A DNA stretch of 64,000 bases from an uncultured delta proteobacterium (GCA_963798485.1 CAWCTR010000009.1:32001-96000); one strand, 5' to 3'. Shown: positions 39,915-62,845, counted from the stretch's first letter. Notes: a model not told the origin generated them from the sequence alone. Translations and numbers: made by a program.

Positions 39915-40040
39915 TCAGAAACTGATGATTTTGGAAATAAATCTATGCCAAGGGGCATGAATACTCAGAGTGCCGATTTTGTCACGTGATCTATGGTTTT
40001 GAAAATCCCAACTCAGTTCGATGCCTCTGGCACATTATCT
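39915..40040 (+). repeat. Dispersed repeat family copy B
   Basis: GAAACTGATGAT...AATCTATG...CTCAGAG, then 39989-40034 (44/46 identical to 53350-53395), ending TGGCACATTATC. Confidence 0.8.
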
Positions 40041-40429
40041 CCAGTTAGAGTCAACTAGTTATTACTTCATTCCAATTATTGCACAAGGATCATAATGTTA
40101 TAATGTTGAAGGTCGATTAACCATTATTGCTTAATGCAAAAGCATGACTCAGAGGGACTATGTTTTTATTTTTTTATAATTGCTTGAGCACAAGTGGAGT
40201 AAGATGTACTTATACTTATACCACCTTGAGGAACCCAGCCTTGCTTTATTTCTTCATTTACTAGTCCTTCTAGTCTTTTAATAGCATCTTCATAATCTTT
40301 TCCAGAATATGTGGTGAGAATTTTGTATTGCATGGTCTACCTCCAATTATAATCTGGTGTAATATTGTGCCAGTCGTTTTGGGGGACCATTATATCATGA
40401 GCTTTGTATCAGATCTATTTCAGAGATTA

Positions 40430-40540
40430 TATTTCTTCGATTTCATCACGGTTTTGAGAATGCTGAAAACTGATGATCTTAAGTTCAAACCTATGCAGCA
40501 GGCGCTCTATATCAGAGCATCAAGCGTGGCACGAAATCTT
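40430..40540 (+). repeat. Dispersed repeat family copy C
   Basis: CTTCGATTTCATCACGGTTTT (40435-40455) is identical to 56045-56065, followed by AAAACTGATGATCTT...AAACCTATG...TGGCAC. Confidence 0.8.
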
Positions 40541-40601
40541 CACTTAAAGAGTGTTATTTGTGTAATGTCTGTTAGTGTTTTTTTAGTTTCACGTAGTTAA
40601 T

Positions 40602-41408
40602 TCAAAAACGGATATGAGCCCCGAGAGCAATATTGCCATGTCCTATACTGACCTCAGGTTGAATATCGTTATCCAAGCCCATGAATGCATTATGGAAGAA
40701 GGCTGCCATGAAATTACCTAAAGCAAAACCCGCCAGCACATCCGAAGGATAATGCTTTTGGGCCTCCACCCGAGCCCAGCCTGTGCCAAGCGATACGGTG
40801 TACAGGGAAGCATCAGCTATCCACCTGACCGGATCTGGCATGTCGATAGATTTAAGGTTGAGAGTTGCAAGTCGTGTGGAAACAGCAGCATGGGAAGCAT
40901 GCCCTGAGGGCATGCTGTAGTAATCGGATCCATCCGGGCGAAGGCGATGTGTTGCATCCTTGAAAGATGTGGTGGACAGGCTAGTCGCTCCAATGGCTGC
41001 GGCATCCACAGCGAAGCCCTTTGTTTTGTTGCTCATCCACTCCTGTGACGTATCGCCGCTTGGTGTAGCTAAAAAGCTTGCCACATAAGCACCAGTGGCG
41101 ATCCCTGCGAGCACGTTACTCGCATTCGCAGCACTGTCCTGGGAACCGAAAACGGGATTGTGTTCAGAAGCATAATGCGAAATCCTGCGGTCAAAGTCAC
41201 GGTATTGAAGCGCTAAGGCCGTTACACAAGGCAACCAGACATCCAGTGATGTCACTGCATCTAAGGCTGAATTGCCTGCCTTTTTCCATCCTGGAGTTAT
41301 GGTAGCATCCTGTCCCCACCCCCGACCAGTGTTAAGAGTTCCACAGGCAGGGAGTAATCCGAGGATGAATAGACCAGCAATAAATAGATAACTCAAATGG
41401 AGTTTCAT
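40602..41408 (-). CDS. PAP2-family phosphatase, lipoprotein
   Basis: Lipobox LPAC, K..HRLRPD, MPSGH, ARVEAQKHYPSDV. Confidence 0.9.
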   Translation of the reverse strand: MKLHLSYLFIAGLFILGLLPACGTLNTGRGWGQDATITPGWKKAGNSALDAVTSLDVWLPCVTALALQYRDFDRRISHYASEHNPVFGSQDSAANASNVLAGIATGAYVASFLATPSGDTSQEWMSNKTKGFAVDAAAIGATSLSTTSFKDATHRLRPDGSDYYSMPSGHASHAAVSTRLATLNLKSIDMPDPVRWIADASLYTVSLGTGWARVEAQKHYPSDVLAGFALGNFMAAFFHNAFMGLDNDIQPEVSIGHGNIALGAHIRF

Positions 41409-41457
41409 AATTGTATATGAATAAAACCTATATGTAAAATTTCAAGAGCTTATTATA

Positions 41458-42000
41458 TTGAAAACTACTTTCTATCTTATTAGTAATTCAATGAAGGTGG
41501 CTGGTATAAAACCTTGGGAAGTGATCATTATCCCTGTACTCTTCTTTGCCACAACATCAGCACATGCAGATGGTGTATTTCTTGAAGGTGGACTTGGTTT
41601 CCAGTTCTCAACGGATTCTCAAGCCATGTTCCTCAACTATCATATCGACTCATCCCCAATTTTTGGGCTTGAGAGCTTTTATGATTTAGAACTCGGTTCC
41701 TGGAATGGACAGAATCACAATGATGCGATCATTCTTGCCAAGGGAATGTGGTGGGATCTGCCTAAGAATACCTATTTCAGCTTTGAGCCTGGTGGTGCCT
41801 ACATGGTAAAGACATCAAACAATCTGGGCACACATCTTCAATTTGCATTCAGATTTGCTCTAGGTATGAGAACAGAAAAAATTGATTTCTCGATTGGTTA
41901 TAGACACTTCTCTAATGGTGCAAAGGTTTTCCATTGGACAGATCCATCTAATAATAACGGTGAAAATTTCATTACACTCCAGATAGGCTACCTTTTATAA
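41458..42000 (+). CDS. PagL-like acyloxyacyl hydrolase (lipid A deacylase beta-barrel)
   Basis: LGTHLQF, YRHFSNG (His-x-Ser), N.GEN and a terminal aromatic beta strand. Start uncertain. Confidence 0.8.
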   Translation: MKTTFYLISNSMKVAGIKPWEVIIIPVLFFATTSAHADGVFLEGGLGFQFSTDSQAMFLNYHIDSSPIFGLESFYDLELGSWNGQNHNDAIILAKGMWWDLPKNTYFSFEPGGAYMVKTSNNLGTHLQFAFRFALGMRTEKIDFSIGYRHFSNGAKVFHWTDPSNNNGENFITLQIGYLL

Positions 42001-42144
42001 TTCAAGCGAACAAGAACTAAGTCTTGTTTCAAAAGTTCGAAGGCATATATTCACAGTAGATCAAATTTTCTAAAATATAGAATATTAGAATAGAGATCTC
42101 TTCGATTAAAATAGGTAACCCCAAACATAGATTATGAACCATTG

Positions 42145-42200
42145 ATAACTGCGATAAACTGGCGCTTTCCAAAGGCCCTAAAATCGATGATCTTGGTTTG
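42145..42200 (+). repeat. Dispersed repeat family copy D (interrupted by group II intron)
   Basis: ATAACTGCGATAAA...AAAATCGATGATCTTGGTTTG aligns with copy F and stops exactly at the intron 5' end. Confidence 0.85.
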
Positions 42201-42557
42201 GTGTGTCACGAATGCCGCGAGGCAATGCTGTGTAAGAGATGAGGGAAGGTCCCTCGGCGCCGGTTTACAGGAGCAGGCTTCAAACCGCCTTAAGCTGCGA
42301 TGGTAAAGAGCCATGGTGGTGAGCGTTAGGGGAAATGGCACAAGAATTAAAATGCGTCACGGTGAGTATCGGAGAGACGAGCGAAAGCGAACCAATCGAT
42401 GAGGCATCGAAAGATCATGGATGATGTCAAAACCAGGGTCCCAAACCAACTCTGGGAACAGCTCAGAGGAAACCTGTTTACTGTCTGAGTGGCATCCGGT
42501 GTATAGATGGCGTGAATCCGATACGGGCTTTTACACGGAACGTGAGAACCTGTCGTC
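42201..42557 (+). mobile_element. Group II intron 5' fragment (class D, RmInt1-like), no RT ORF or domains V-VI
   Basis: Starts GTGTG and carries class D domain I motifs (GGTAAAGAGCCATGGTGGTGAGCG, AGACGAGCGAAAGCGAACC, GGCGTGA, GGCTTTTACACGGAAC). EBS1 CAAACCA and EBS2 GATCAT pair with the upstream exon. Confidence 0.88.
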
Positions 42558-42725
42558 TGGAGTCACTATGAAAAGCTATATTCAGAGAGCATAGATGCAT
42601 GGTTAACGTCGCCCGATGATATATTCAATTCATCAAGACCTTGGATAGCCTCAAAACGGCTGAACTCTAACTTAAAAAGTGGTACAAGTATTGGTGGCCG
42701 GTCACATATGATGATGGGATATTAA

Positions 42726-43319: not shown

Positions 43320-43500
43320 CTCGCATCTCCTATGAGCTATATTCAACCGAACAATCCTGCATCTTGAGATATTTTAGCAATCAGAGAGTCTTGAAATTAG
43401 TTTAGCTCCATAGAAGATATCATTTGCCGATCTCAACGAGTGGGTGACAGTTCCAAACTGAATATATCTATAAGGAATTGAAGCTCCAGCCAGACTGAAT

Positions 43501-43650
43501 ATAACTGCGATAAATCGGTGGTTTCAAACGGACAAGGAAGAGTAGATGTTTTGTTTCGAAATCTTCGGTATGGGCAAAGCGTGACGATTATCACCATTAT
43601 CATTAGTTTCTCAGGACATATGGAACCGATTGATTTTATCGCATAATCTA
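43501..43650 (+). repeat. Dispersed repeat family copy E
   Basis: 43501-43589 is 87/89 identical to 51697-51785. Its tail CATTATCA...GGAACCGATTGATTTTATCGCATAATC aligns with copy J. Confidence 0.9.
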
Positions 43651-43718
43651 CAGTCCAGATGATTAGCTCCTGATACCACTTTGCGATTTAATGATGAATT
43701 CAGAATTACTTATCAGTG

Positions 43719-44804
43719 TTAGGGGTTTCCGACCTTTGAAGCCAAGTCCATGGCCAGTTTTCTGAGTATAGTTGCTTCTTCGAGACCATCGATAAAGCGT
43801 TGAGGGATGCCAGAAAAACCTGTTTGGGCAGCGACAAGGGCTCCGGTGAGGATTGCACGCTCCTGGTTTTGTCCCCCGCCATTGATAGCATGGAGCACTG
43901 CAGATTCGAAATCGTTGTGGAACCGTGCAGCAAGGTAGTAGGCTGCAGGAAGCTGGTGGTAAATAGCGCAGGGCATACCGTAAACGATTGACACCTTCCA
44001 CGCAGGTTCTATACATATACTCGGATCTGCTGCAGCTTCGGCCATATAAGATGGTGTAAGCAGGGCATCCGGCGAGGCAAACCGACCCGCACGGGGAGGG
44101 TCCGGATCACCGGGGAGGGGCGGCTGGAGGTTTTCTCGGGTCACTGCATGAAAAGGCAATTCCCCGCTATGAACCATTTCCATGAGTTTCATTGACAGTT
44201 TCCTGTCGAGCGTATGCCCCTGAACCACTAGACTCAGCACGGCGCAGAATGCAACTGTCAAGGAGATCAAGATATCATCTGACTGCGTAAGGATGGTATT
44301 GCTGGTTACGGCAGATGCGAGCCGGGCAGGTTGAAAAGCATAACGCACAGCAATGGCAAGGCAGCGATCGAGTGCTTCAGTGGTGTCCGCATGGCCTCCG
44401 GTCTGCCCCCAGGGCAGGCCCTGCTGCACACGACGCCTCCATGCCTCCCTGATTGACTGGCTGGTATATTGCCCCGGGCCATTCACCGGTGTCCCGTCAA
44501 GAAGAGGAAAGAGCTCCTCATCCATCCGGCGGCAGAAATCCGCTTCGTCGTAACCACCGCAATCGACAAGGGAGCGGACCATGAGTTTCAGGATGAAACC
44601 TTCCTGGGAAAGTTGACCTGCCTTGAGTCCGTCGTGGTATCGACCGGGTTTGGGATCGGTATAGCCAGTGATCCAGTCACCATAGTCGTGGTGAAGTTCA
44701 GCGAGACTGTAATACCAGTGAGGACCCAACGCCATGGCATCGCCTATAAAGGCCCCCATGATTGCACCGGCAGCACGGTCTTTGATTCTGCTTTGGTCTG
44801 TCAT
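43719..44804 (-). CDS. ADP-ribosylglycohydrolase family protein
   Basis: GAFIGDAMALGPHWYY and F.SAVLHAINGGGQNQERAILTGAL. Confidence 0.85.
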   Translation of the reverse strand: MTDQSRIKDRAAGAIMGAFIGDAMALGPHWYYSLAELHHDYGDWITGYTDPKPGRYHDGLKAGQLSQEGFILKLMVRSLVDCGGYDEADFCRRMDEELFPLLDGTPVNGPGQYTSQSIREAWRRRVQQGLPWGQTGGHADTTEALDRCLAIAVRYAFQPARLASAVTSNTILTQSDDILISLTVAFCAVLSLVVQGHTLDRKLSMKLMEMVHSGELPFHAVTRENLQPPLPGDPDPPRAGRFASPDALLTPSYMAEAAADPSICIEPAWKVSIVYGMPCAIYHQLPAAYYLAARFHNDFESAVLHAINGGGQNQERAILTGALVAAQTGFSGIPQRFIDGLEEATILRKLAMDLASKVGNP

Positions 44805-44947
44805 ATCCACCTCTGGTTTATTTCAATCATGTTTATCAGTCTCATGAACTCAAAAGAATGCATCCGGTCTTGCTATCAATGCTTGTATGCAGGTTTGTCC
44901 GGAGAAATTGAGCGGTATCATGCTTGTATTTGGTGATAAGCTCATGA

Positions 44948-47011
44948 TTATTGTCGCTGCGCCTTGCTTAAACGGCACATGAAGCTTCTGCTGGTGGATG
45001 TCCCAGTAACCCTGCCCCTCCGGTCATCCTCGGTAAGCGTGTTAAGGTTGCATCGCATGTCATGATCGCCCCATCCCCAGGCAAGCTGAATTGTGCCCGG
45101 CCGCACAGTGGTTGAGATTCTCGCTGCCATTTCGATGGCGCCTTTCGGAGATTCAATCCGCACGGAATCGCCCTCTGTCAGGTTGTAACGCTGGGCATCA
45201 TCGGGATGGATATCGATAACACAGCGCGGACCGGCCTGAAGCAGGGAGGGGATGGTGCGAAACTGCGAGTTGGTGAAGCAGATGTCGCGGCTTCCGCTGA
45301 TTCCCAGTACGGGATAGTGTTCGCTCTGATCTGAAAAGCTAATGGGGTCACCGTCCAGGCCTTGTTCGAACGGCACACCCGGTAATCCGGCCTTAGCCAG
45401 GCGCCTTGAGAAGAATTCGACCTTGCCCGATGGAGTCCTGAATGGCTCCTCCAGGTATTTTTCGTAGCGCAAGCTCTCTATCCGCAAGCCATTGCCGTTC
45501 TGCCGCAGTTTTTCCACCGTCACCCCAGCGGGTTCCAGCTGATAATCTATGGCATCCTCTGCACTTTCCCAGGGAAATTCGGCGGCAAAACCGAGCCTAC
45601 GTCCCAACTCAAAGATGATCCGCCAGTTCGGCCACGAATCATCAACCGGTTCGATGACTGCATTTTGCAGGAACATCGGATTGTTGCGGATGGAGGAACG
45701 GTTGAGCTGGGTCGTTTCAAAACAACTGGCGGCCGGGAGAACAATATCGGCCAGTTTTGCCGTCTCGGTCAGAAACATGTCAATCACCACCAGGGTTTCC
45801 AATTTGCCGAAGGCAGCTCGAGTCCGGATGGAATCGGCCATGGTTACGAGGGGATTTCCTGACTGGACCACCACCATCTTCAGCGGATAGGGGTATCCAT
45901 CCAGAATTGCATCGATCAGGCAGCCCTGAACCTGGTTGCCCCAGGTGTCGCTGAAAGTGTTGAACAGGGGATAGTCACGGGTGATGGGAACAGTGCCATC
46001 CGGGAGTCGGTCCTTTAACTGGATGTTTCTCACCGGTATCGGTTGCGGTAGAACATCGCCGCCTGTTTTGTCAAGATTTCCGGTCAAGGCACGTAACATG
46101 GCGATGCTCCTGGTGGTGTCGAAGACCTCGCGGTGCATGTCCAAGCCATTACCATCGATGATTGAGGAGGGTCCGCACGTGGCATACAGACGGGTAGTCT
46201 GCCTGATCTGATCCGCTGTCAGCCAGATTTTTCCGGCAACCTCATCGGTGGGATATCGTGCTGCCACCTCTTTGAGCGCATCAAAACCAATGGTATGGCG
46301 CTCGACAAACTCAGTGTCATACCAGCCTTCCCTGATGATCTCGTTGATCATGGCCATGGCCAGCAGGCCGTCGTGGCCTGGCTTGATCTGTAGCCAGAGG
46401 TCGGCCATGTGGGCAAGGGAGGTCTTCACCGGGTCAATGACTATTAGTGTTGCCCCGTGCTCTTTTGCATAGTGGATAGATTCCGCCGCGCCCAGAGCAG
46501 TGTTCCGATCGTTCTTACCCCAGACAAGGATACACTGGGAGTTCTTCGCCTCCGGAAAGGCCATGGCCCCATAGGTAAAAGAATGGGCAAAATCCCTTGC
46601 CACAAAGCAGACGGAACCATTACCGATCGTATTGGGGGAGCCGAAGAGATTCATTAGACGGTTGGGATAATCCCAGGGTGCGCCCCAGTCGGCGGCCATG
46701 CCCCGCAGCCAGGCCACCGAACGCGACCCGGATTCTTCCCGATGACGGAGAAACCTCTGTGCCACGAGATCAAGGGCTTCATCCCAGCCTGCCTCGCGGA
46801 AGCCCGAACCCTCACCCTTTTTGATCAGTGGAGTTTTCAGGCGCCGGGGTGAATAAACGATATCAGGGGCAGAATCTAGCTTGGGGCACTGGAGCCTTTT
46901 TTCAGGGGGGAGGAAGGATTTCCGCCGGGCCGATATAAGGTGGCCACCAGTCACCTCGGCCTCTATGGGACAGCAGGCGGAACAGAGACGGCAGACTGTA
47001 TCATAGATCAT
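44948..47011 (-). CDS. Molybdopterin (bis-PGD) oxidoreductase catalytic subunit, cytoplasmic
   Basis: CRLCSACC...C Fe-S motif, WDEALD, GSVC, ETAKLADIVLPA, TPSGKVEF, IHPDDA. No Tat signal. RBS AGGAGG. Confidence 0.9.
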   Translation of the reverse strand: MIYDTVCRLCSACCPIEAEVTGGHLISARRKSFLPPEKRLQCPKLDSAPDIVYSPRRLKTPLIKKGEGSGFREAGWDEALDLVAQRFLRHREESGSRSVAWLRGMAADWGAPWDYPNRLMNLFGSPNTIGNGSVCFVARDFAHSFTYGAMAFPEAKNSQCILVWGKNDRNTALGAAESIHYAKEHGATLIVIDPVKTSLAHMADLWLQIKPGHDGLLAMAMINEIIREGWYDTEFVERHTIGFDALKEVAARYPTDEVAGKIWLTADQIRQTTRLYATCGPSSIIDGNGLDMHREVFDTTRSIAMLRALTGNLDKTGGDVLPQPIPVRNIQLKDRLPDGTVPITRDYPLFNTFSDTWGNQVQGCLIDAILDGYPYPLKMVVVQSGNPLVTMADSIRTRAAFGKLETLVVIDMFLTETAKLADIVLPAASCFETTQLNRSSIRNNPMFLQNAVIEPVDDSWPNWRIIFELGRRLGFAAEFPWESAEDAIDYQLEPAGVTVEKLRQNGNGLRIESLRYEKYLEEPFRTPSGKVEFFSRRLAKAGLPGVPFEQGLDGDPISFSDQSEHYPVLGISGSRDICFTNSQFRTIPSLLQAGPRCVIDIHPDDAQRYNLTEGDSVRIESPKGAIEMAARISTTVRPGTIQLAWGWGDHDMRCNLNTLTEDDRRGRVTGTSTSRSFMCRLSKAQRQ

Positions 47012-47021
47012 CTTTTTCCTC

Positions 47022-47960: not shown

Positions 47961-48444
47961 CTCTTCCTCCTTGAATGATATCTGGCCGCGAGACCTGGGG
48001 AAGCTCAGGCGATCCGACTGGTACCGGGGCGATGAATCTCTGCCCGGATCGGACTGATAAAACGATACCGTCGAATGAGATCTTGCCTGCATGGAGAGTA
48101 GGAAATTTATTTTGATAAGAACTTGCTTTCAAGGGAATGGAGTATAGGAAAATTATTCTTGTATGTCAATAAATAGCTGACCATAAAATGTGGGGGTGGG
48201 CGTGGTTGATGGGGTAAGGGATGTGATGTAGCACTCATCATTGATAAGGCAGCCGAGCTGGATCTGATAGAACAGGCATCATGGATTGAGGTTGAGCGTC
48301 TTATGATGGGTATCAAGAGGGGAAAAGGGGTTGCGCACTGGCTAGAGATCTGCTTCTGCTACCCCTTCAAGCTTAGGTATTCCAGAGTATAGATTTTTTG
48401 GTAATCATAGCAAATGGTGGGCATGGAAATTATAGATTATAGCT

Positions 48445-48640
48445 TCCATGCCAGAAGATACGGGTTCTGATTACTAAATGTTTCTAACCATAATCATCGC
48501 TTTGTCCAAAGTGAACATAACTGCGATAAATTGACGCGTTCGAAAGGCCTTAAAACCGATGATCTTGGTTTGAAACCTATGCTGCAAGGCACTTCATATC
48601 ATACCGTTGCCACTGGCACTAACGAAATCTATGCTCTGGA
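48445..48640. repeat. Dispersed repeat family copy F (back-to-back halves)
   Basis: CATAATCATCGCTTTG (leftward arm) plus ATAACTGCGATAAA...AAAACCGATGATCTTGGTTTGAAACCTATG...CTGGCAC (rightward). Confidence 0.85.
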
Positions 48641-48882
48641 ATAACCATTGGCCTTCGGCACCATCGGCAACCCGGGTACGGTATCGGCTATGATCACCTG
48701 CTGGGTGAGCAATGCCTAGTGCGAAACGCACTGCACACGATGGTTTGCCGAGAGAAATAAGAAACCCGGTACAACCCGCTGATACTCATTATTTCAAGAC
48801 ATTAGAAAAGGGCCCTCACATGAGTGCCCTTTTTCTCTTAAAGGTACTTGGAATGAGCTCTTGCATATATTATTATTCTGTT

Positions 48883-49473
48883 ATGAAAAAAATAATGAGA
48901 AGCCTGATTATTTGCATGATCCTGTTCGGCATCATACCCCTTTCTAGCTATGCGGCTGCATCGGAGCAGGATTGCCTTGCTGCCATAACAAAAGTTAAAC
49001 TCAAGCTGCCTGACGATCCTGTCGCCGCTGCTTCACTGGGCATCACGCAGAAGGACGGGCAAATAACGCTTAATGATATCGATGCCGAGGTAATCATCAT
49101 CGAGATCTTCAGCATGTACTGCCCTTTCTGCCAGAGACATGCACCCATGACTAACAAGCTGCAAACAGTAATAGAAACACGCAGCGACACAAGAGGCAAG
49201 GTCAGGCTGTTGGGCATCGGTGTTGGCAATTCACCCTATGAAGTGAAGTTTTTCAAGAAGAAGTACGGCATTCAATTCCCCCTGTTTGATGATGCAAACT
49301 CAGCAGTCCTGAACATTCTTCCCGATATAAGAACGCCATATTATTTCGCCATTAGAAAAACAGGCAGATCCCTGAATGTTTTTTTCACACAACAAGGGGC
49401 CTTTGAAGATCCCGAGAAATTCCTCAATACCGTGCTGAACAAGTCCAAACAATTACCCGGGAGAAACCAATGA
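48883..49473 (+). CDS. TlpA-like thioredoxin-fold protein, exported
   Basis: Signal peptide, FSMYCPFC (CxxC), FPLFDD, TP motif. Confidence 0.85.
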   Translation: MKKIMRSLIICMILFGIIPLSSYAAASEQDCLAAITKVKLKLPDDPVAAASLGITQKDGQITLNDIDAEVIIIEIFSMYCPFCQRHAPMTNKLQTVIETRSDTRGKVRLLGIGVGNSPYEVKFFKKKYGIQFPLFDDANSAVLNILPDIRTPYYFAIRKTGRSLNVFFTQQGAFEDPEKFLNTVLNKSKQLPGRNQ

Positions 49474-51618: not shown

Positions 51619-51696
51619 CATCGAATTTTTCTTAGTTCCTTCTGGTGTAGATATATTTATCTATGCAGAAGGAAACTATCCTTCAAAAAAGTGTCG

Positions 51697-51790
51697 ATAA
51701 CTGCGATAAATCGGTGGTTCCAAACGGACAAGGAAGAGTAGATGTTTTGTTTCGAAATCTTCGGTATGGGCAAACCGTGACGATTGGCAC
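51697..51790 (+). repeat. Dispersed repeat family copy G (left flank of IS110 insertion)
   Basis: 87/89 identical to copy E; ends TGGCAC at the IS junction. Confidence 0.9.
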
Positions 51791-51811
51791 CCATTAAAAG
51801 GCCCCTGTCAA

Positions 51812-52243
51812 TAAAAACATAGTTCACCATCGCACTTTTTTTTGCAGGTCTAACGTATAGCCAGCTGGGATCATGCCAACGATTCCCTTTCTGCGCCCTG
51901 TTTTTCATTATGCTCAGGTGACAGATTACAATCTGCACCAGGCACCCATCGGGTTTTAGACTGCACAGCGAGAGGATGAACCTAGATGAGTAGCCCTCTC
52001 AACCCGTACGCCCCTAACAGCATCTGCTGTCCCAGAAAAATATCGGTTCCTTGCCATGTTCAATTGTAAGTGACACGACAATAGGCTCTTCCGGCCACAC
52101 CTTAAAGACTCATGGCAAAGGCAGATCTGAACCATCGGAATTACCTCCACTGGATTCTTGTTTATAAGAGAGGGGTAAACGGCGGAGCAACCACGAAAAT
52201 GGTTCTTAGCCACCAAACGTCTGGTCTCGCCGTTTTCCCCTGC
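51812..52243 (-). ncRNA. Putative bridge/seekRNA region of the IS110 element
   Basis: About 430 nt non-coding, downstream of the transposase. Contains short matches to the target (CATTAT 51906, TGCCAA 51874) and the donor junction (CACCCAT 51943). Confidence 0.5.
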
Positions 52244-53269
52244 TCAGCAAAAGAGCATCTCTTCCTTGAACTCAACGCCATCTCTGAGCATATAGTAGCA
52301 GGCCCTGGCAAGCTTGCTTGCTATGGTCTTGATTGCCACCATCCTGTGAGTTTTCGAAGCCTTCCTTTTGTAGTAGCCGGCAATCTTCGGGGACTGCCTT
52401 AGGGAGATAAACGCCGCTTCAACAAATGCCCAAGCCAGATACCGGTTCCCATTCTTTGCATTGCCTTTGCCCTTGCTCTTCCCGTTCGAAAACCTCCCGG
52501 TAGGAACACAACGGCAGTAAGAGGAGAAGTCTCCCACCCTTGCAAACCGCGAAATATCTCCCACTTCCAGCATGATCGTCATGGCAAGGATGTCACCGAT
52601 CCCAGGAACCATGTGCAGTTTCTCAAAAGCATCCCTCGTCTTCACTTCTCTCTTTACCGTCTTCTCGATATTCCTGATGTTCTTCCCGAGAAAGGCTATG
52701 GTTTCAAGGCTCGTTGTACCAAGGAGAACTAAGTGCTCCTCCTTCAATATCCCTTTGATGTCTTCCGATTTAACCTTCCTCAGTGCATTCGCACTCATGT
52801 GCACACCGGTGTTCCTCTCGATCATGGACTGCAGCGAGATGATATGGGCTGTTCTTTGCTTTACCAGGAATGATCTCTTCCTCAAGAGATCTCGAACCGG
52901 TCGCTCTTCCCTGGGATAGATATATCCTTCAGGGAGAATGCCGAGAGACATCATCTGCGCAAGCCAGAAGGCATCATGTCGGTCATCCGCATACTTGAGC
53001 CCTTTGTACTGCTGTATCGCTGCAGGATTGGCAAGATGTACACAATCATACCCTGCCTCATTGAGCCCATCCACCAGCCAGTACCAGTTAAAGGTGCTTT
53101 CGACAGCTATCCCCCTGATCTCTTCACGGTAAGGGTTTAGGGTCCAAACGAGTTCTTCCAGGTTATTCTTTACACGCTTCTCGAAAACTCGCTTCATTGT
53201 TCCCTTCTCGATCAGCCCTATGTACGTGTTCCCTGAATGGAGATCCAACCCGGCATACAGCTCACTCAT
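52244..53269 (-). CDS. IS110 family transposase (DEDD recombinase)
   Basis: YAGLDLH, AVEST, DDRHDA, VPGIG, SYCRCVP...SNGK, GNRYL. Confidence 0.95.
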   Translation of the reverse strand: MSELYAGLDLHSGNTYIGLIEKGTMKRVFEKRVKNNLEELVWTLNPYREEIRGIAVESTFNWYWLVDGLNEAGYDCVHLANPAAIQQYKGLKYADDRHDAFWLAQMMSLGILPEGYIYPREERPVRDLLRKRSFLVKQRTAHIISLQSMIERNTGVHMSANALRKVKSEDIKGILKEEHLVLLGTTSLETIAFLGKNIRNIEKTVKREVKTRDAFEKLHMVPGIGDILAMTIMLEVGDISRFARVGDFSSYCRCVPTGRFSNGKSKGKGNAKNGNRYLAWAFVEAAFISLRQSPKIAGYYKRKASKTHRMVAIKTIASKLARACYYMLRDGVEFKEEMLFC

Positions 53270-53346
53270 GACACACCTCCTCCTGAGTTATTGTCTGTAT
53301 TATAGCCGTGCGATCTTGGCGAAAGTGCCTTTTAGATGATTATCAC

Positions 53347-53395
53347 ATTATCTATGGTTTTGGAAATCCCAACTCAGTTCGTTGCCTCTGGCACA
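53347..53395 (+). repeat. Dispersed repeat family copy H (right flank of IS110 insertion)
   Basis: ATTATC then 46 bp that are 44/46 identical to 39989-40034. Confidence 0.85.
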
Positions 53396-53770
53396 GGATC
53401 AACAGATTATTCACATGGGGTGGAAAATTTAAACGCTCATTTTTTACAGGCAGTTTTTATCACGCTCAATCACCCCACCTGTCAAAGTGCGGTTAAATCG
53501 GCGCTTACAAATATCCCGAGGATAATTGCAAATAATATTAATACCAACCATTCCATAAGTGGAATATCCTTTTTGTGAGGCGTTCAAGTAACTCATCCTT
53601 GTTGTTTAATCCCACATGATATTTAAGGTCGGTTAAAAAGTGCCGGAACTTAAGCATTACGAAAGTGTGGTGGGAACAAAGCCAAGGTCTTTACAGTGCA
53701 CGTTTGCAATCCAGGAACACCATTATAAAGTCAGACTCGGGCAAAGATTTTCTGGACCATCCTCATGGGT

Positions 53771-53835
53771 GATTTCTTCGATTTCTTATCGGTTTTAGGA
53801 TGTCTGAAAACCGAAGATCTTGGGCTGAAACATAC
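53771..53835 (+). repeat. Dispersed repeat family copy I
   Basis: CTTCGATTT..TCGGTTTT-N10-AAAACCGA (53789-53814, perfect inverted arms) followed by AGATCTTGG. Confidence 0.8.
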
Positions 53836-54093
53836 AGAGCATATCATTTCATACTAAAGCATGACACATGACGTAACGAGATTTATACTTACATCAGACT
53901 CCCTTAAAAATGAATCTGTCACCTTTTCTTTCTTTGGCAGATTGTATGATATACTCTATAGCATGTTTCTCCGGGCAGCTTAGGCAAATCTTTTAGGCTT
54001 GCCCATGGTTCTTCGTATTTCATGATAATCCTGCCAAACTCGACGAGCTTGGTCTGAAGGGCCAGGTTGTGAATCTATGAATTCAACTTACCA

Positions 54094-55749
54094 CTAGATT
54101 ACATCTCCCGCAGCAGCTCTGCCTGCGGTCCGTCCTGAGAACATGCACCCGCCAAGGAACGTGCCTTCGAGCGCCCTGTAGCCGTGCATGCCCCCACCAC
54201 CGAATCCCGCAACCTCGCCTGCGGCATAGACACCAGGAAGTGGTCGGCCGCCGTACATAAGGACGCGGCCTGAGAGGTCGGTCTCAAGGCCGCCCAGGGT
54301 CTTGCGGGTGAGGATCCACAGCCGCACCGCAATCAAGGGACCTGCAGCCGGGTCAAGGATCCGGTGCGGCCTTGCCACTCGGACCAGTTTGTCCCCGAGA
54401 TAGGCCCGTGCCGCTCTGATGGCCGTTACTTGGGCATCCTTGCAGAAGGCATTGGTGATCTCCCGGTCGCGGGCCATCACCTCCCGCTCAAGTTCGGACG
54501 GATCGATCAGGTTCTCACCGGTCAGGGTGTTCATACCCTGCACAAGCTCAGGCAACGTGCTACGGACTATGAAATCTACCCCTCGCTTTTTGAAAGTCTC
54601 CACAGGTCCCGGCGCCCCGGGAAGGACACGGCCTAAGATCATGAGGAGGCTACGGCCAGTGAGGTCAGGATTCTGCTCGGAGCCGGACAAGGCGAACTCG
54701 CGGGCAATGATGCGCTGGTTGAGCAGGAACCACGAATAGTCATACCCTGAGGAGGAGATATGCTTGAGCGCACCCAGGGTGTCGAACACGGGGAACAGTG
54801 GAATGGGTAAGCGATGCCCCATTGCATCCAGCCACAAAGGTGATGGCCCGCTTAAGATGCGGATGCCGTGGCGGGTCCAGATGGGAGCATAGTTTTGGAT
54901 GCCCTCGGGGTAGTGCCACATCCGGTCCGGGTTGATTATGCGGCCGCCGCTCGCACCAACGATCTCAAGCATTCGCCCATCCACATGGTCAGGCACGCCG
55001 GAGATCATGCGTTGCGGTGGCTCACCCATGTGCCTCGGCCAATTACGGCGCACCAGGTCGTGATTTCCTCCGATCCCCCCGGAGGTGACGATCACCGCCT
55101 GGGCACGAAGTGAAAAGTCACGTGAGACTACTCGGGAACTAGGGGTACCGCGTTCCGCACTGCTCGGTTCCAACACCTCGCCATAGACGCCTTCCACCAC
55201 GCCCCCGGTCATGTTCAAACTTGTGACACGGTGTCGGAACCGCAGTGTCACAAGGCCCTGTTTTTCTCCCTCATGAACACGACGGATAAATGGCTCCAGC
55301 ACCCCCGGACCTGTACCCCATGTCACATGAAAGCGGGGGACCGAGTTACCAGGTCCGTTCGCCAGGTAACCTCCCCGTTCCGCCCACTGCACAATGGGAA
55401 ATATGCGCACACCCAGGCCCTTAAGCCAGGCACGCTTTTCTTCTGAAGCAAAACCCACATAGGCCTCGGCCCACTTACGCGGCCAATAGTCTTCGTCCCG
55501 ATCAAACCCTGCTGTTCCAAGCCAGTCCTGCAGTGCCAAGTCGTAGGAATCCCTTATGCCGAGCCTGCGCTGCTCTGGCGAGTTGACGAAGAACAGGCCG
55601 CCGAAAGACCAGAAGGCCTGCCCTCCCAATGAGGTCTCCGGCTCCTGATCCAGCACTATCACCCGGCGTCCGGCACTGACAAGTTCACAGGCGGCTACAA
55701 GACCGGCAAGACCCGCACCGATTATAATTACATCTGCATCACTGGCCAT
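54094..55749 (-). CDS. FAD-binding dehydrogenase (KsdD-like/COG3573 type)
   Basis: IGAGLAGL, GGQAFWSFGG, RFHVTWGTG, LTRKTLGG, HGYRALEGTFLGGC. Confidence 0.9.
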   Translation of the reverse strand: MASDADVIIIGAGLAGLVAACELVSAGRRVIVLDQEPETSLGGQAFWSFGGLFFVNSPEQRRLGIRDSYDLALQDWLGTAGFDRDEDYWPRKWAEAYVGFASEEKRAWLKGLGVRIFPIVQWAERGGYLANGPGNSVPRFHVTWGTGPGVLEPFIRRVHEGEKQGLVTLRFRHRVTSLNMTGGVVEGVYGEVLEPSSAERGTPSSRVVSRDFSLRAQAVIVTSGGIGGNHDLVRRNWPRHMGEPPQRMISGVPDHVDGRMLEIVGASGGRIINPDRMWHYPEGIQNYAPIWTRHGIRILSGPSPLWLDAMGHRLPIPLFPVFDTLGALKHISSSGYDYSWFLLNQRIIAREFALSGSEQNPDLTGRSLLMILGRVLPGAPGPVETFKKRGVDFIVRSTLPELVQGMNTLTGENLIDPSELEREVMARDREITNAFCKDAQVTAIRAARAYLGDKLVRVARPHRILDPAAGPLIAVRLWILTRKTLGGLETDLSGRVLMYGGRPLPGVYAAGEVAGFGGGGMHGYRALEGTFLGGCMFSGRTAGRAAAGDVI

Positions 55750-56039
55750 TCATCTTCCTCCTATGGGATACCTTCTTAATTTTCTCTCCCAACGGCTCTT
55801 ATTTATATAAGTCCTGAAAGATTAAAAGGGAGATGACACTTAAAATCTCTCTGCTCCTATGCCTTTTCGGAAAGAGCAGAGAGAAAGACTTCTGGATCTC
55901 TCCATGACCTTCCACTCAAAAACAATTTTCCAGAAATCCCACCAGAGATTTATTAGAAAAGTAGGGGTCAAAGATGATTTTCTAATATGATTGATCTCTG
56001 TAATAACTCATCTGCCTCAATCTTTGAGTATCAACCATA

Positions 56040-56225
56040 GATTACTTCGATTTCATCACGGTTTTCAAAAGTCCAAAAGCTGATGATCTTGGTTTCAAAT
56101 CAATGGTATTCTGGCTACAGATTCAAAGCGCCGCTCATGGCACATTATCATCGGTTTCTTGGGACGTGTGGGATCGATGATTTTATTGTATAATCATCGC
56201 TTTAGCCTATATGAATAGTTCTGAT
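56040..56225 (+). repeat. Dispersed repeat family copy J (longest copy)
   Basis: Five alternating-orientation arms related to AAACCGATGAT. Contains GATGATCTTGGTTT and TGGCACATTATC (56138-56149). Confidence 0.85.
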
Positions 56226-56243
56226 CAGTTGCTACGCATCATC

Positions 56244-59514: not shown

Positions 59515-60315
59515 ATGATGTTCTCCATTACGAGGCTAAGGAACAGGGTCATTGCAAAGGTGATTACAAGTTTCCCTGCGTTGGCTAAAGGATTCATCGA
59601 AGCATATAAACCATGGGAATCTGAGGATATCCCTTGGACTCCTGTGAAAAAGCCTTTAGCAGAGAGTACTGTTGCCATCGTCACTACTGCAGGTGTACAT
59701 CGTAAAGACCAAAAACCCTTCTACATGCATGATAAAAATGGTGACCCTTCTTTTCGAGAGATCGACGGCAATACTCCTGTACAAGATCTCATGATCACCC
59801 ATGACTATTATGACCATACCGATGCCGGGAAAGACTTGAACATAGTCTTCCCTATAGAACGTCTGCAGGAATTCGTTTCAGAGGGTATTATTGGAAAGAT
59901 GGCGGATGCGCATTACACCTTCATGGGTCACATAATGGGGCCGCACATCTACACGCTCATTGAAGTGAGTGTCCCGGAGGTAGCTGCCAGATTGAAGAAG
60001 AAGGAAGTGGACTATGTACTGTTAACACCGGGTTGAGCTATCTGCAATCAGTCCGTGGGACTGATCCAGCGGGGTATTGAGGCTACCGGTATACCCACCA
60101 TCGGAATCTCTATTGTCAGGCAGTATACTGAAAAGGTTAAACCGCCCAGGACAATCTTCCTCAAGTGGCCCTTCGGGCACCCGCTGGGTGAGCCAAATCA
60201 CATTGTTCAACAACGTGCTGTTATGCATAAGGCATTTGAAGCCCTGATGGAAATTAAAACACCCGGAACAATTATTGATGTACCCTGGAAGTGGAAAAGA
60301 GAAAGATTTAAATAG
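59515..60315 (+). CDS. GrdB/PrdB-family (glycine/sarcosine/betaine/proline reductase selenoprotein B-like) selenoprotein, UxxC
   Basis: VAIVTTAGV, GDPSFR, DLNIVFP, then VLLTPG-U-AIC-NQSVGLIQR.IE..GIPT...PFGHPLG. The two ORF-track halves are in the same frame, joined by TGA 60034. Confidence 0.9.
60047..60065 (+). promoter_or_regulatory. Bacterial SECIS-like hairpin
   Basis: ATCAGTCC-GTG-GGACTGAT perfect 8-bp stem starting 10 nt after the UGA. Confidence 0.75.
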
Positions 60316-60832: not shown

Positions 60833-60958
60833 AACTCACCTCCTGAAGGTATCCGGCAGCATGAACAAGCACTGTCATAAGCATAACTAATCGCCTCTCT
60901 TTCTAAGTCAAGAGACGAAAGAAACAAAATCATTAACACCAAAAACGAACTGAAGATT

Positions 60959-61050
60959 TGTGTCAGAAGCAACGACCTGAGTTGGGTTTTTCAAAACCAT
61001 AGATTTCATGATAATCATCGCTTTGCCCATATTGAATATCTCTTCGATAG
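60959..61050 (-). repeat. Dispersed repeat family copy K (inverted)
   Basis: Reverse complement of 60959-61004 is 41/46 identical to 39989-40034. Adjacent ATAATCATCGCTTTG is shared with copies F and J. Confidence 0.85.
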
Positions 61051-61180
61051 ATGATCGCTTTCTTGATCATCTAAAATGTACATATCTTGAGTTGAGATCT
61101 ATCCTTTGCTGGTGGCATTCACAAAGTAACGATCCTGGCACGCTCTTACCCCGGGACAACGCCACATGTGCCTCGTTTGA

Positions 61181-61396
61181 TAATTCCCTGTTCCTCGATT
61201 TTATTTCCCTGATATGTTAAAAAATTTCCCTGTTATGTTGAGTAGGGAATTTAGTTGTAACTCACTAGAATGAGAGATCATATCGATGCAATTTCTTTAA
61301 TAAAGGTCCCAGAAACGATAAAATTCCCTGTAAATTCCCTGATAAACAGGGAATTTGGTGTAGAGAATGGTTCGCACTTGACTGCCTGCACCACCA
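61181..61396 (+). repeat. TTCCCTG-iterated region followed by a tRNA-3'-like tail (probable integrative-element end)
   Basis: TTCCCTG at 61184, 61205, 61226, 61324 and 61335; inverted (C)AGGGAA at 61244 and 61347; then GGTTCG...CACCACCA. Confidence 0.6.
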
Positions 61397-61851
61397 TCTT
61401 TTTCTTACTTTGTGAAACCCTCAAAGGAGTTCCGCCAACAAAATGGTAAACCTCCCTCTGATGACATGATGCCCAATGGACAAATGATAGTTGCATCATA
61501 AGCCCAAGACGATTACTTGCTGAATTGACCTATCCTTTAATGGGAGCTCAACCATCCCTGATATCCCTGATAGAGATATTGAAGATCCCTACGATAATTC
61601 AATGGTCCCATCTCCCTACCCTCTGCTAGAGATATCGAAATATAATCTATTGTCTCAGGAAAGGCCAACTTTGCGTTATCTGGGTTGTATAACCATGAGT
61701 GATCCTGAAGAAATAAGCAGCCAACTATCTGTATCTGACCATCTTCCAAACTTTTCCACCTGTAGTCTCTTATAAATAAATGTTGTTAAAGAATGGGAAG
61801 GGTTCTGACGAAAATCATAAGTGATAATAGAATTCAGGTAAAGGTGTACAC

Positions 61852-62241
61852 ATGGAAGTAAAAGATAAACGGCGTTATACCAGGAACCCAATAAAGATCG
61901 AGGCCAGGTATCAGGACTCTAACAGAAAAGTTCTGAAGGGCACGGTGACAAACATTGGCATCAATGGTCTATACATTGAAACTCCTCACGTCTTAGAAAG
62001 CGGCGAGATCATACGCATGACCCTGGATTTGATTGACGAGGGAAGGGTCATTTATGTGGAAGGTAAGGTCGTCCACTGTGCGCCTAGGAAAGGGATGGGT
62101 ATTGAGTTCATGGATCAGGACAACCGCGAGATTAAAAAGCTCATCAGCACTATGAGCAAGCTCGAAGAGGCATCGCTAATTGCCCTGGTAGATTGGCTTT
62201 CGATACCGACCAATAACAAATCATCGGCCAGCAAGCCCTAA
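61852..62241 (+). CDS. PilZ domain protein
   Basis: RRYTR (RxxxR), NIGINGLYI (D/NxSxxG-like), GMGIEF. Confidence 0.88.
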   Translation: MEVKDKRRYTRNPIKIEARYQDSNRKVLKGTVTNIGINGLYIETPHVLESGEIIRMTLDLIDEGRVIYVEGKVVHCAPRKGMGIEFMDQDNREIKKLISTMSKLEEASLIALVDWLSIPTNNKSSASKP

Positions 62242-62486
62242 TCCACCTTTGAGTCAGGAACCAATTTCTGAAGGCCATCGCTATTCCTCAATACTTTCCT
62301 TGCTTTCATGAGGGCATCAATGACTTTGTCGATACTCCAATTATTAATGGCAATTCCTTTATCCGTAGGAAACAATTGCCCCTGAGCATTCTTCGTGTAT
62401 ACCCGACAGTTGATGAAGGTTGTGCCCAGGTATTCATCAACATAAGTTTGCCTTATTCGAGCAGGACGAGTTTTGATTGCTTCCAC
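62238..62486 (-). CDS. PC4/p15-like ssDNA-binding protein (start uncertain, possibly degraded)
   Basis: EYLGTTFINCRVY...PTDKGIAI matches the PC4-family pattern. Confidence 0.6.
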   Translation of the reverse strand: MEAIKTRPARIRQTYVDEYLGTTFINCRVYTKNAQGQLFPTDKGIAINNWSIDKVIDALMKARKVLRNSDGLQKLVPDSKVD

Positions 62487-62583
62487 TATCCAAAGGGTGA
62501 GGTTACGATCGATCTCTTACTCAGGACGAATATAGGCCGGTTGTTTGAGCTGTCAGGTATGCTACACATCTTTACATTTCAAT

Positions 62584-62606
62584 AAAAACGCCGAATCGGC
62601 GTTTTT
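62584..62606. terminator. Bidirectional intrinsic terminator-like hairpin
   Basis: AAAAACGCCGA-A-TCGGCGTTTTT. Confidence 0.55.
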
Positions 62607-62684
62607 CTCCATTGAGTAAATGGGGAGTGGACGAAGGATTAGGAGTGGAGTGACTTATATAAAAAACAGGATCGGGAGGATATA

Positions 62685-62845
62685 AATTCGATTTATTTTC
62701 GGTTTTAAGATAGCTGAAAACTGAATATATTGTTTCCAAATCTATGGTATTAAGGCTATCGGCTCAGAGCGCCGATCCTGGCACGAACTATACAATATTT
62801 CCATATTTCCATGCTAATAAAACCGATGCTTCTTTGCGTAATCAA
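62685..62845 (+). repeat. Dispersed repeat family copy L
   Basis: TTCGATTT..TTCGGTTTT-N10-AAAACTGAA, AAATCTATGGT, TCAGAGCGCCG..CTGGCAC, AAAACCGATG...TAATC; colinear with copy J. Confidence 0.8.

What the first reader, a model, noticed from the sequence alone, without database searches (positions are those of the whole stretch)
39915..62845. Modular non-coding repeat family partitions the accessory region into gene modules: candidate undescribed cassette/recombination-site system
Seen: at least 11 related intergenic elements (39.9, 40.4, 42.1, 43.5, 48.5, 51.7, 53.3, 53.8, 56.0, 61.0, 62.7 kb) plus one at 6.4 kb. They share colinear blocks: CT(G/T)CGAT, CGGTTTT-N10-AAAAC(C/T)GATGATCTTGGTTT, AAA(T/C)CTATG, TGGCACATTATC and ATAATCATCGCTTT. 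They are built from inverted arms related to AAA(A)CCGATGAT; the longest copy (56040-56225) has five arms in alternating orientation. They fall between functionally unrelated 1-3 gene modules, and I saw none in 7.8-36.6 kb. Some copies look like hybrids or back-to-back halves (6410, 48445). Established: inverted recombinase-binding arms and multi-subsite layouts characterise att, res and pdif sites. Inference: these are recombination sites of a module-shuffling system, analogous to but distinct from integron attC or pdif arrays; I see no attC RYYYAAC/GTTRRRY ends and no XerC/D dif consensus.
Basis: partly seen in the sequence, partly recalled or inferred. Interest (0 to 1): 0.88.

Follow-up and report, generated by a model that had tools for sequence, protein, structure and literature searches.

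The report
Intergenic repeats used as mobile-element landing pads
The repeats are real: an old, genus-specific family of about 100 non-coding intergenic elements that four kinds of mobile DNA use as precise insertion addresses, which explains the cut-up look of the region better than a new gene-cassette system does.

Summary
Observation confirmed. All 12 listed elements are copies of one family, and none lies in 7.8-36.6 kb. An iterated nhmmer search gives 98 hits (90 sites) on 20 of 32 contigs, covering 9,756 of 4,302,938 bases. BLAST finds it in 7 of 14 other genomes of the genus and in 0 of 16 outside it.

It is non-coding. It is not significantly folded and shows no covariation. It is old: median pairwise identity is 0.54.

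It is not the site of the genome's three integron integrases. It is not flanked by RAYT genes. No recombinase recurs next to it.

The new result is that 17 of 17 examined insertions in this genome sit at fixed positions inside the repeat. These are five IS110, three IS1182 and nine group II introns of two types.

Repeats do lie at synteny breaks. One break that I traced coincides with the IS110 insertion point.

Verdict: a REP/BIME-like mosaic repeat that serves as a landing pad for several mobile elements. A dedicated cassette system is not shown.

The parts
6400..6496 (+). Partial copy: the head (profile positions 2-59), then two inverted arm-plus-GTGCCA units. It abuts the 3' end of a truncated tyrosine recombinase gene.
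   Evidence: nhmmer; sequence printed; arm hits at 6443 and 6472
6492..7040 (-). Truncated tyrosine recombinase ORF (182 aa). Only residues 1-120 match its full-length homologues.
   Evidence: Pfam Phage_integrase, E 5.6e-11; homologues of 288 and 279 aa in G002 and G009; each has a repeat hit downstream, strong in G009 and weak in G002 (E 0.0078)
36526..36600 (+). tRNA-Ala(GGC), at the left edge of the repeat-rich accessory region.
   Evidence: ARAGORN; Rfam; synteny with G007, G008, G002 and G003 ends just after it
39879..40044 (+). Repeat copy (profile 4-130) with a 3' extension.
   Evidence: nhmmer; the repeat finder D1 and D7
40431..40545 (+). Repeat copy (profile 8-123). It is 94% identical over about 121 nt to a copy on contig C17, and the flanks are unrelated.
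42139..42200 (+). Repeat copy cut off at profile position 63 by a group II intron.
   Evidence: nhmmer; the flank is printed
42200..42600 (+). 5' part of a group II intron (type 1). It is truncated: no domain V/VI hit.
   Evidence: Rfam RF01999, 95.6 bits, at 42241-42362; copies at 92-93% identity in G002 and G003 begin at window 42195-42196
43500..43648 (+). Repeat copy (profile 7-162). It has ATCAC where other copies have GGCAC. Its left 95 nt are 96% identical to 51697-51791.
   Evidence: (D6)
48435..48503 (-). Inverted partial copy, back to back with the next one.
   Evidence: nhmmer
48517..48638 (+). Repeat copy (profile 8-125). Homology of the downstream AhpC module with G002 starts inside it, at 48624.
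51691..51790 (+). Left part of a repeat copy (profile 2-110), split by IS110.
51785..53346 (-). IS110-family element, 1562 bp. Transposase gene at 52244-53269 (-), with a 459-nt non-coding region downstream of the gene. It is inserted at the TGGCAC block of the repeat.
   Evidence: Pfam; NCBIfam NF033542, 186.7 bits against a cut-off of 140; junctions of 5 copies aligned; length
53347..53405 (+). Right part of the same split repeat copy.
   Evidence: the repeat finder D7; alignment of the right junctions
53770..53900 (+). Repeat copy (profile 6-133).
56035..56225 (+). Longest copy (profile 2-162) plus a further arm and the start of another head. Used as the seed of the profile.
60947..61026 (-). 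Inverted partial copy.
61038..61142 (+). Repeat copy (profile 8-111).
62682..62843 (+). Repeat copy (profile 8-162).

Best explanation
These are copies of an old, lineage-restricted family of mosaic intergenic DNA repeats. Each unit is about 120 nt, and some copies carry a tail of about 40 nt. They work like REP/BIME or ERIC elements.

Each copy is a string of short conserved blocks separated by free-running sequence. The blocks are an 11-bp arm related to AAACCGATGAT in alternating orientation, a CT[GT]CGAT head block, a central GATCTTGGTTTGAAA block and a TGGCAC block. The blocks are kept as double-stranded sequence, not as a hairpin. I therefore infer that they are protein-binding sites.

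Copies persist for a long time and are only rarely duplicated as a unit of about 121 nt.

Four mobile-element families use different blocks as their insertion address:
- an IS110-family RNA-guided recombinase inserts at TGGCAC;
- an IS1182-family element inserts mostly at the centre;
- one group II intron inserts after the second arm;
- a second group II intron inserts directly after the head block.

These insertions, and later events between the inserted elements or between repeats, leave half copies, hybrids, back-to-back halves and synteny breaks. That is why the accessory region looks partitioned into modules.

Shown here: distribution, non-coding nature, lack of fold and covariation, age, the fixed insertion positions, and the location at synteny breaks.
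Inferred: protein binding, how the repeat itself spreads, and that the inserted elements cause the rearrangements.
For: Family size and spread.
- 98 nhmmer hits (90 merged sites) on 20 of 32 contigs.
- 79 of 90 sites are not mostly inside a crude ORF of 70 aa or more.
- BLAST matches in 7 of 14 other genomes of the genus and in 0 of 16 outside it.

Non-coding. Mean column entropy by codon position is 1.18, 1.11 and 1.11. Many copies carry stops in the best frame.

Not a fold.
- RNAalifold gives no consensus structure on either strand for 39 copies.
- Single-strand DNA fold z-scores of 16 copies average about -1.1 (top strand) and -0.7 (bottom strand).
- Watson-Crick frequency at the two candidate helices equals the shuffled expectation at every position.

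Old. Over 2342 copy pairs the median identity is 0.54, and only 10 pairs reach 0.8. A copy next to pagL is kept in G000 and G002, where the gene itself is 75% identical.

Unit duplication. A 94% identical pair on contigs C9 and C17 shares only about 121 nt.

Landing pad.
- 5 of 5 IS110 copies have the same junctions at TGGCAC. The same holds for 2 of 2 copies in G003.
- 3 of 3 full IS1182 copies are in repeats. Two are at profile positions about 57-62, with the halves overlapping by 3-4 nt.
- 2 of 2 type-1 introns and 7 of 7 type-2 introns have the 5' exon flank inside the repeat.
- The family covers 0.23% of the genome.
- Within the genus, IS110 was found only in genomes that have the repeat: G002, G003, G007 and G011.

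Known precedent. REP sequences are specific IS targets (PMC1525189, abstract read). attC sites are targets of group IIC-attC introns and IS1111-attC elements (PMC3001079, passages read).
Against: - Co-orientation is not explained by this reading. All 11 main copies in the window are on the + strand, and 30 of 47 adjacent pairs closer than 10 kb are co-oriented.
- No binding protein and no mobilising enzyme has been identified.
- The block-wise conservation may partly reflect how a profile search finds diverged copies.
- For the 7 type-2 introns only about 10-20 nt of repeat head precede the intron. nhmmer did not score those flanks, so I read them from the printed sequences.
- The flank of the second type-1 intron (C4) was scored on the opposite strand.
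- ORFs were called crudely. The genome is a draft of 32 contigs with 6.96% contamination, and 13 hits lie within 3 kb of contig ends. Copy numbers are therefore lower bounds.
Confidence: 0.6

Rival explanations
1. The repeats are the recombination sites of an undescribed cassette system. A dedicated site-specific recombinase binds the inverted arms and inserts, excises and shuffles modules of 1-6 genes, building co-oriented arrays at places such as the tRNA-Ala locus.
For: - 11 co-oriented copies separate modules in the window.
- The 28-kb repeat-rich stretch lies between tRNA-Ala and the remnant of an integrase gene. In the repeat-poor genome G008 that integrase gene directly follows the tRNA.
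- In G002 and G003 an insertion of 7-9 kb that holds repeats sits between two genes that are adjacent in G000, G007 and G008.
- The ORF212 module (from about 50180) is directly preceded by a repeat in G003.
- The arms are conserved as sequence without covariation, as expected for protein-binding sites.
- A small tyrosine recombinase gene is followed by a repeat in G000 and G009, and by a weak hit (E 0.0078) in G002.
Against: - No recombinase recurs beside the repeats.
- The small recombinase is broken in G000. It was found in only 2 of 14 genus genomes, and not in the repeat-rich G003 and G007.
- Integron integrases and repeats do not co-vary. G002 has 15 BLAST hits and no intI. G008, G009 and G012 have intI and no BLAST hit.
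- There are no repeats within 20 kb of the intI of G007, nor on the held stretches of the intI contigs C12 (whole) and C19 (1-9000) of G000. C5 has none in 1-20000 and one weak hit about 108 kb from its intI.
- Many copies are singletons.
- Orientation is unrelated to that of flanking genes.
- Arm pairs are 10-11 nt apart. As far as I recall, tyrosine-recombinase cores have spacers of 6-8 nt.
- One traced module boundary is the IS110 insertion point.
Confidence: 0.12
2. A decaying non-autonomous transposon (MITE). The full form of about 170 nt has terminal inverted repeats of about 30 nt, each made of two arms. An unknown or lost transposase spread it long ago, and the copies are now neutral relics.
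For: - The head and the reverse-complemented tail are more alike than shuffled controls, by more than 2.5 SD, in 5 of 11 long copies.
- Small size, many copies and intergenic location.
- A unit of about 121 nt is shared by a 94% identical pair with unrelated flanks.
Against: - I saw no target-site duplication in the flanks of 34 full copies (by inspection only).
- No pair of inverted ends encloses a gene. Inverted pairs are all back to back.
- There is no burst of near-identical copies.
- Most copies lack the tail.
- Conservation comes in discrete blocks, and four different mobile elements still read them as addresses across species. Free decay would not be expected to preserve that.
Confidence: 0.2
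3. Unusual attC sites (a cluster of attC sites without an integrase) served by the genome's three integron integrases.
For: - The genome has three intI genes above the TIGR02249 cut-off: 459.6, 442.1 and 437.4 bits against 265.
- The array is co-oriented.
- The element is hit by an IS110-family element and by group II introns, as attC sites are.
Against: - The ends read GT[TA]GAT...ATC[TA]AC. That is the reverse of the AAC...GTT order that I recall for attC.
- No fold and no covariation.
- Next to the intI on C12 I read attC-like hairpins of about 60 nt, of a different kind.
- No repeat lies near any intI.
- Modules hold genes on both strands.
Confidence: 0.03
4. Fragments of a decayed protein-coding gene, or a structured small RNA.
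For: The consensus is open in one frame on each strand, and one top-strand frame gives similar-looking peptides in several copies.
Against: - No three-base periodicity of conservation.
- Many copies have stops within or right beside the peptide-like stretch, and none lies in a longer ORF.
- No Rfam family matches at E up to 1.
- No consensus structure.
- Orientation is unrelated to neighbouring genes.
Confidence: 0.03

Closest known systems
REP/BIME elements of Enterobacteria and Pseudomonas, as specific IS targets (ISPpu9, ISPpu10, ISPa11, IS621)
   Same: Extragenic and high-copy. A mosaic of short units in alternating orientation. Lineage-specific. A hot spot of site-specific insertion by IS110-family elements (PMC1525189, abstract read; PMC11208160 and PMC11187229, seen only in the search listing).
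   Different: - No RAYT-type Y1 transposase gene is flanked by the units.
- The units are not supported as hairpins.
- The element is longer (about 120-165 nt), and its copies are far more divergent.
- Two group II intron families and an IS1182 element target it as well.
Integron attC sites, as targets of group IIC-attC introns and IS1111-attC elements
   Same: A divergent family of sites of about 60-140 nt lying between gene modules, co-oriented in arrays, and used as an address both by an IS110/IS1111-type element and by group II introns (PMC3001079, passages read).
   Different: No AAC...GTT core order, no folded-strand signature, no link to intI, and modules with several genes on both strands.
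ERIC/IRU, pneumococcal BOX and Neisseria Correia elements
   Same: Intergenic repeats of 100-160 nt built of modules, with partial and composite forms.
   Different: No sequence relation was tested. Correia elements have clear terminal inverted repeats and a TA duplication; neither was found here.
pdif modules of Acinetobacter plasmids (recalled)
   Same: Short sites bound a series of unrelated gene modules.
   Different: Arm pairs here are 10-11 nt apart, and no Xer-type core was recognised. Copies are chromosomal and often single. I ran no dif model.

Membership tests
Integron attC | Core sites R'' (RYYYAAC) at the 5' end and R' (GTTRRRY) at the 3' end, in that order (motifs recalled) | tested here: not met
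   The ends of aligned copies read ..GT[TA]GAT at the 5' end and ATC[TA]AC.. at the 3' end, that is, GTT first. My own crude regex finder found nothing anywhere, not even beside intI, so it carries no weight.
Integron attC | A single strand folds into a conserved imperfect hairpin | tested here: not met
   RNAalifold gives no structure for 39 copies. Fold z-scores average about -1.1 and -0.7. Pairing frequency equals the shuffled expectation.
Integron attC | Array next to an intI gene, or a co-oriented array of cassettes that mostly hold one gene | tested here: not met
   No copy on C12 (whole), on C19:1-9000 or on C5:1-20000. None within 20 kb of the intI of G007. Co-orientation is met in the window, but modules hold 1-6 genes on both strands.
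REP/BIME with RAYT | A Y1 (RAYT) transposase gene flanked by the repeat units | tested here: not met
   There are 8 PF01797 matches. Within about 1 kb of each of 6 loci I found at most one arm-like word at 2 mismatches or fewer, and no profile hit.
REP/BIME with RAYT | Extragenic, high-copy, mosaic of units in alternating orientation | tested here: met
   79 of 90 sites are outside crude ORFs. 98 hits. Alternating arms can be read in the copies.
REP/BIME with RAYT | Units are stable palindromes (hairpins) | tested here: not met
MITE | Terminal inverted repeats | tested here: inconclusive
   Head versus reverse-complemented tail scores more than 2.5 SD above shuffles in 5 of 11 long copies. Most copies lack the tail.
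MITE | Target-site duplication | tested here: inconclusive
   None seen by eye in the flanks of 34 full copies. I found no filled/empty orthologous pair.
MITE | An autonomous partner with the same ends; bursts of near-identical copies | tested here: not met
   Inverted pairs are all back to back, with no gene between them. Only 10 of 2342 pairs reach 0.8 identity.
pdif / Xer sites | Two 11-bp Xer arms around a spacer of 6-8 bp (recalled) | not tested
   I did not type a dif consensus from memory. Arm pairs here are read 10-11 nt apart.
Any Rfam RNA family | Match to a curated covariance model | tested here: not met
   At the gathering threshold on the whole window, only the tRNA and group II D1-D4 matched. 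At E up to 1 on 39500-64000, only group II D1-D4 matched.

The most novel reading that the evidence does not exclude
The repeats are the sites of a cassette system unrelated to integrons. An unidentified DNA-binding recombinase reads the multi-arm sites as double-stranded DNA and adds modules one after another at chromosomal entry points such as tRNA-Ala, giving co-oriented arrays. IS110, IS1182 and the introns would then be parasites of that system, as IS1111-attC elements and group IIC-attC introns are of integrons.
Probability: 0.12. Interest if true: 0.85.

Novelty: new member of a known kind. Interest (0 to 1): 0.42.

Why it matters
This is a clear case in an uncultured lineage. One search found the pattern several times per genome only in records titled Desulfomonilia or delta proteobacterium MAGs. 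One intergenic repeat family is the shared address of four unrelated mobile elements, each at its own fixed position.

It offers natural target sets for an RNA-guided IS110 recombinase and for two group II introns.

It also shows how a repeat family plus its specialised parasites can make an accessory region look like a cassette array. Annotators of such genomes should mask or model this family. Half copies next to IS elements and introns are otherwise easily misread, and the repeats break assemblies: 13 hits lie within 3 kb of contig ends.

Tried and rejected
Decayed gene. The minus-strand and plus-strand frames of the consensus are open, and peptide-like similarity is visible. I rejected this because conservation has no codon periodicity and many copies carry stops.

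Folded DNA or RNA. Rejected. A scan of all diagonals gave only the short CGGTTTT/AAAACYG helix, conserved but without compensatory change.

Integron link. Rejected. My crude attC regex finder found nothing even beside intI, so it is uninformative.

RAYT link. Rejected.

Replication-strand bias as the cause of co-orientation. GC skew is weak and its sign is inconsistent between contigs with the same copy orientation. Undecided.

Relation to the tRNA-Ala 3' end. No profile hit at window 36500-36960 in the genome-wide search.

Bridge-RNA guide. No shared word of 7 nt or more between the IS110 non-coding regions and a 38-nt target. This says little, because the guides are short and split.

Sequencing runs. 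No RNA holder was listed. All four runs laid were low-depth short contigs. One contig of X1 joins 43588 to 56138, at the TGGCAC block of two copies. The shorter side is only 30 letters and min_likeness was 90, so it may be a chimera of repeats or an allele without the IS. I do not count it. Loose ends at 48655 and 50179 read like repeat 3' ends in relatives, but each rests on only 1-2 contigs.

Other. Supplements of the papers were not opened.

Full report

Yes. The repeat finder on the whole window recovers the elements as families D1-D8.

I seeded nhmmer with the longest copy (window 56015-56240) and iterated twice on the whole genome, which holds 4,302,938 bases in 32 contigs. The window is contig C9:32001-96000. 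The result is 98 hits at E up to 0.01 on 20 contigs: 21 on C17, 16 on C9, 10 on C4 and 8 on C14. They merge into 90 sites and cover 9,756 bases.

There is no hit in window 7.8-36.6 kb.

Thirteen hits lie within 3 kb of contig ends. The count is therefore a lower bound, and the repeats probably break the assembly.

**2. What the elements are not**

*Not coding.* Conservation shows no three-base period: mean column entropy is 1.18, 1.11 and 1.11 by codon position. Many copies have stops within or right beside the best frame, and none lies in a longer ORF.

*Not a described RNA.* Rfam gives only a tRNA and a group II intron piece at gathering scores. At E up to 1 on 39500-64000 it gives nothing more.

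*Not a conserved fold.*
- RNAalifold on 39 near-complete copies returns no structure on either strand.
- Single-strand DNA folding of 16 copies gives z-scores between -2.6 and +0.9 (mean about -1.1) on the top strand, and a mean of about -0.7 on the bottom strand.
- At the two candidate helices (ends against ends, and CGGTTTT against AAAACYG) the Watson-Crick frequency equals the shuffled expectation at every pair.

The inverted arms are therefore kept as sequence, not as pairing partners.

*Not transcription-linked in a fixed sense.* Relative to the element, the flanking genes are convergent 26 times, both minus 23, both plus 21 and divergent 17.

**3. Age and distribution**

BLAST with one 171-nt copy finds the family in 7 of 14 other genomes of the genus. 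It finds none in 4 genomes of other genera of the family or in 12 genomes of another family. BLAST undercounts: the profile found a copy in G009, which BLAST had scored as empty.

An exact-pattern scan of 185,579 species genomes gave several hits per genome only in MAG records titled Desulfomonilia or delta proteobacterium. Single hits elsewhere are at about the number expected by chance, by my own estimate.

Copies are very divergent. Over 2342 pairs with at least 70 shared columns the median identity is 0.54, and only 10 pairs reach 0.8. There is no sign of a recent burst.

One pair at unlinked loci is 94% identical over about 121 nt (profile positions about 8-127) and has unrelated flanks. 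A unit of that size has therefore been copied at least once.

A copy next to pagL is present in both G000 and G002, where the gene is 75% identical.

**4. Tests against known systems**

*Integron.* The genome holds three integron integrase genes above the TIGR02249 cut-off (C5, C19 and C12). Beside the one on C12 I read attC-like hairpins of about 60 nt with the AAC...GTT order.

The repeat family is something else.
- Its ends are in the opposite order.
- No copy lies on C12 or C19, and there is only one weak hit on C5, about 108 kb from its intI.
- No copy lies within 20 kb of the intI of the well-assembled G007.
- Presence of intI and presence of repeats do not match across the genus. G002 has 15 BLAST hits and no intI. 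G008, G009 and G012 have intI and no BLAST hit.

*RAYT.* There are eight Y1-transposase matches. None is flanked by arms or by profile hits.

*MITE.* Head and inverted tail resemble each other beyond shuffles in 5 of 11 long copies. I saw no target duplication. No inverted pair encloses a gene. The copies are old. This remains a possible origin, not a demonstrated one.

*Neighbouring proteins.* I clustered 155 crude neighbouring ORFs. No recombinase family recurs apart from IS1182. The largest cluster has 8 members. Its one window member is a polytopic membrane protein of 755 aa with C-terminal TPR repeats.

**5. The main new finding: a shared landing pad**

*IS110.* All five copies of the IS110-family element in this genome have the same junctions. 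Profile positions about 89-104 of a repeat are followed by TGGCAC and then by the element. The element ends in ..TATCAC, followed by profile positions about 110-124. The element is 1562 bp in the window and scores as an IS110 family RNA-guided transposase. Two copies in G003 sit in repeats in the same way. Within the genus this IS was found only in G002, G003, G007 and G011, all of which have the repeat.

*IS1182.* All three full copies of the IS1182-family element are inside repeats. Two are at profile positions about 57-62, one in each orientation, and the two repeat halves overlap by 3-4 nt. The third is in the tail of a copy.

*Group II introns.* The type present in the window (two copies) begins right after the second arm. 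A second type (seven copies, 67% identical to the first) begins with GTGCGCC directly after the head block CT[GT]CGAT[AT][AT]N in 7 of 7 copies. For these seven only a short head remains upstream. I read it from the printed flanks; nhmmer did not score them.

Together, 17 of 17 examined insertions lie in a family that occupies 0.23% of the genome.

REP sequences are known as specific IS targets (PMC1525189, abstract). attC sites are known as targets of group IIC-attC introns and IS1111-attC elements (PMC3001079, passages). This is the same kind of relation with a new target family.

**6. Modules and synteny**

- Synteny with G007 (91% identity), G008, G002 and G003 runs up to tRNA-Ala and stops there.
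- In G008, where BLAST found no copy, the tRNA is directly followed by an integrase gene. Its C-terminal remnant in G000 lies at C9:96477-96623, just after the last copy of the array. About 28 kb of repeat-rich DNA therefore sits between the two.
- In G007 the stretch after the same tRNA also holds repeats, with different genes.
- A second locus (C14) has a repeat at a synteny break. There, G002 and G003 carry an insertion of 7-9 kb with repeats between two genes that are adjacent in G000, G007 and G008.
- The AhpC module (48624-50975) is 93% identical in G002 at another locus.

The left break of the AhpC module falls between TGGCAC..G and AAATCTATG. That is exactly the IS110 insertion point, and the G002 side reads like an IS110 right end. 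The right break is at a 15-nt head-like relic. So at least this boundary is explained by an element that targets the repeat, not by a dedicated recombinase.

Two observations remain unexplained by my preferred reading, and I keep the cassette idea alive because of them. One is co-orientation: 11 of 11 main copies in the window, and 30 of 47 adjacent pairs genome-wide. The other is the position of the array at a tRNA/integrase site.

**7. Verdict**

This is a real, lineage-specific mosaic intergenic repeat. It works like REP/BIME elements, fails the membership tests for REP/RAYT, attC and MITE, and is used as an address by four mobile-element families. It is a new member of a known kind.

The claim of an undescribed cassette system is not shown. 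I put it at about 0.12.

Noticed in passing
Genome contigs C5:12795-13733(+), C19:228-1175(+) and C12:6524-7471(-); outside the window: Three integron integrase genes score 437-460 bits against the TIGR02249 cut-off of 265. Upstream of the C12 gene (C12:7740-7900 and about 8350-8420) I read attC-like hairpins of about 60 nt.
   Followed up: partly
window 48657-48769: A stretch of about 110 nt upstream of the AhpC/TSA-like ORF (48712-49473) is conserved at about 76-83% at several unlinked loci in G007, G008 and G009, including genomes without BLAST hits to the repeat. It may be a cis-regulatory leader. No Rfam match.
   Followed up: no
window 4113-6380 (+), and 7 paralogues on C7, C14, C17, C22 and C30: Eight paralogues of 505-804 aa each lie directly beside a repeat copy. 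The window member (755 aa) is a polytopic membrane protein with C-terminal TPR repeats. They may travel with a copy or attract one.
   Followed up: partly
L139 (G003:C43:76000-95999), about 2875-3161 and 4101-4383: Two repeat copies are each split at profile positions about 57-61 by an insertion of about 146 nt, with overlapping halves. This may be a miniature derivative of the IS1182 element.
   Followed up: no
window 43580-43600: This copy has ..GATTATCAC.. where others have ..TGGCAC.., the same letters as the right end of the IS110 element. Its left 95 nt are 96% identical to the IS-bearing copy at 51697-51791. It looks like a footprint of IS110 loss or of recombination at the IS end.
   Followed up: partly
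C9:96477-96623 (-), 477 bases beyond the window's end: C-terminal remnant (66 aa) of a tyrosine integrase directly after the last repeat of the array. Its homologue in G008 lies right next to tRNA-Ala.
   Followed up: partly
window 37409-38071: Direct repeats with 381-nt spacing inside the 850-aa ORF (families D4 and D9). They correspond to its tandem PAS domains. Ordinary.
   Followed up: no
window 59515-60036: A 173-aa ORF matches only the C-terminal part (profile 209-345 of 347) of glycine/sarcosine/betaine reductase selenoprotein B. It may be a fragment, or a selenoprotein gene read short at an in-frame TGA.
   Followed up: no
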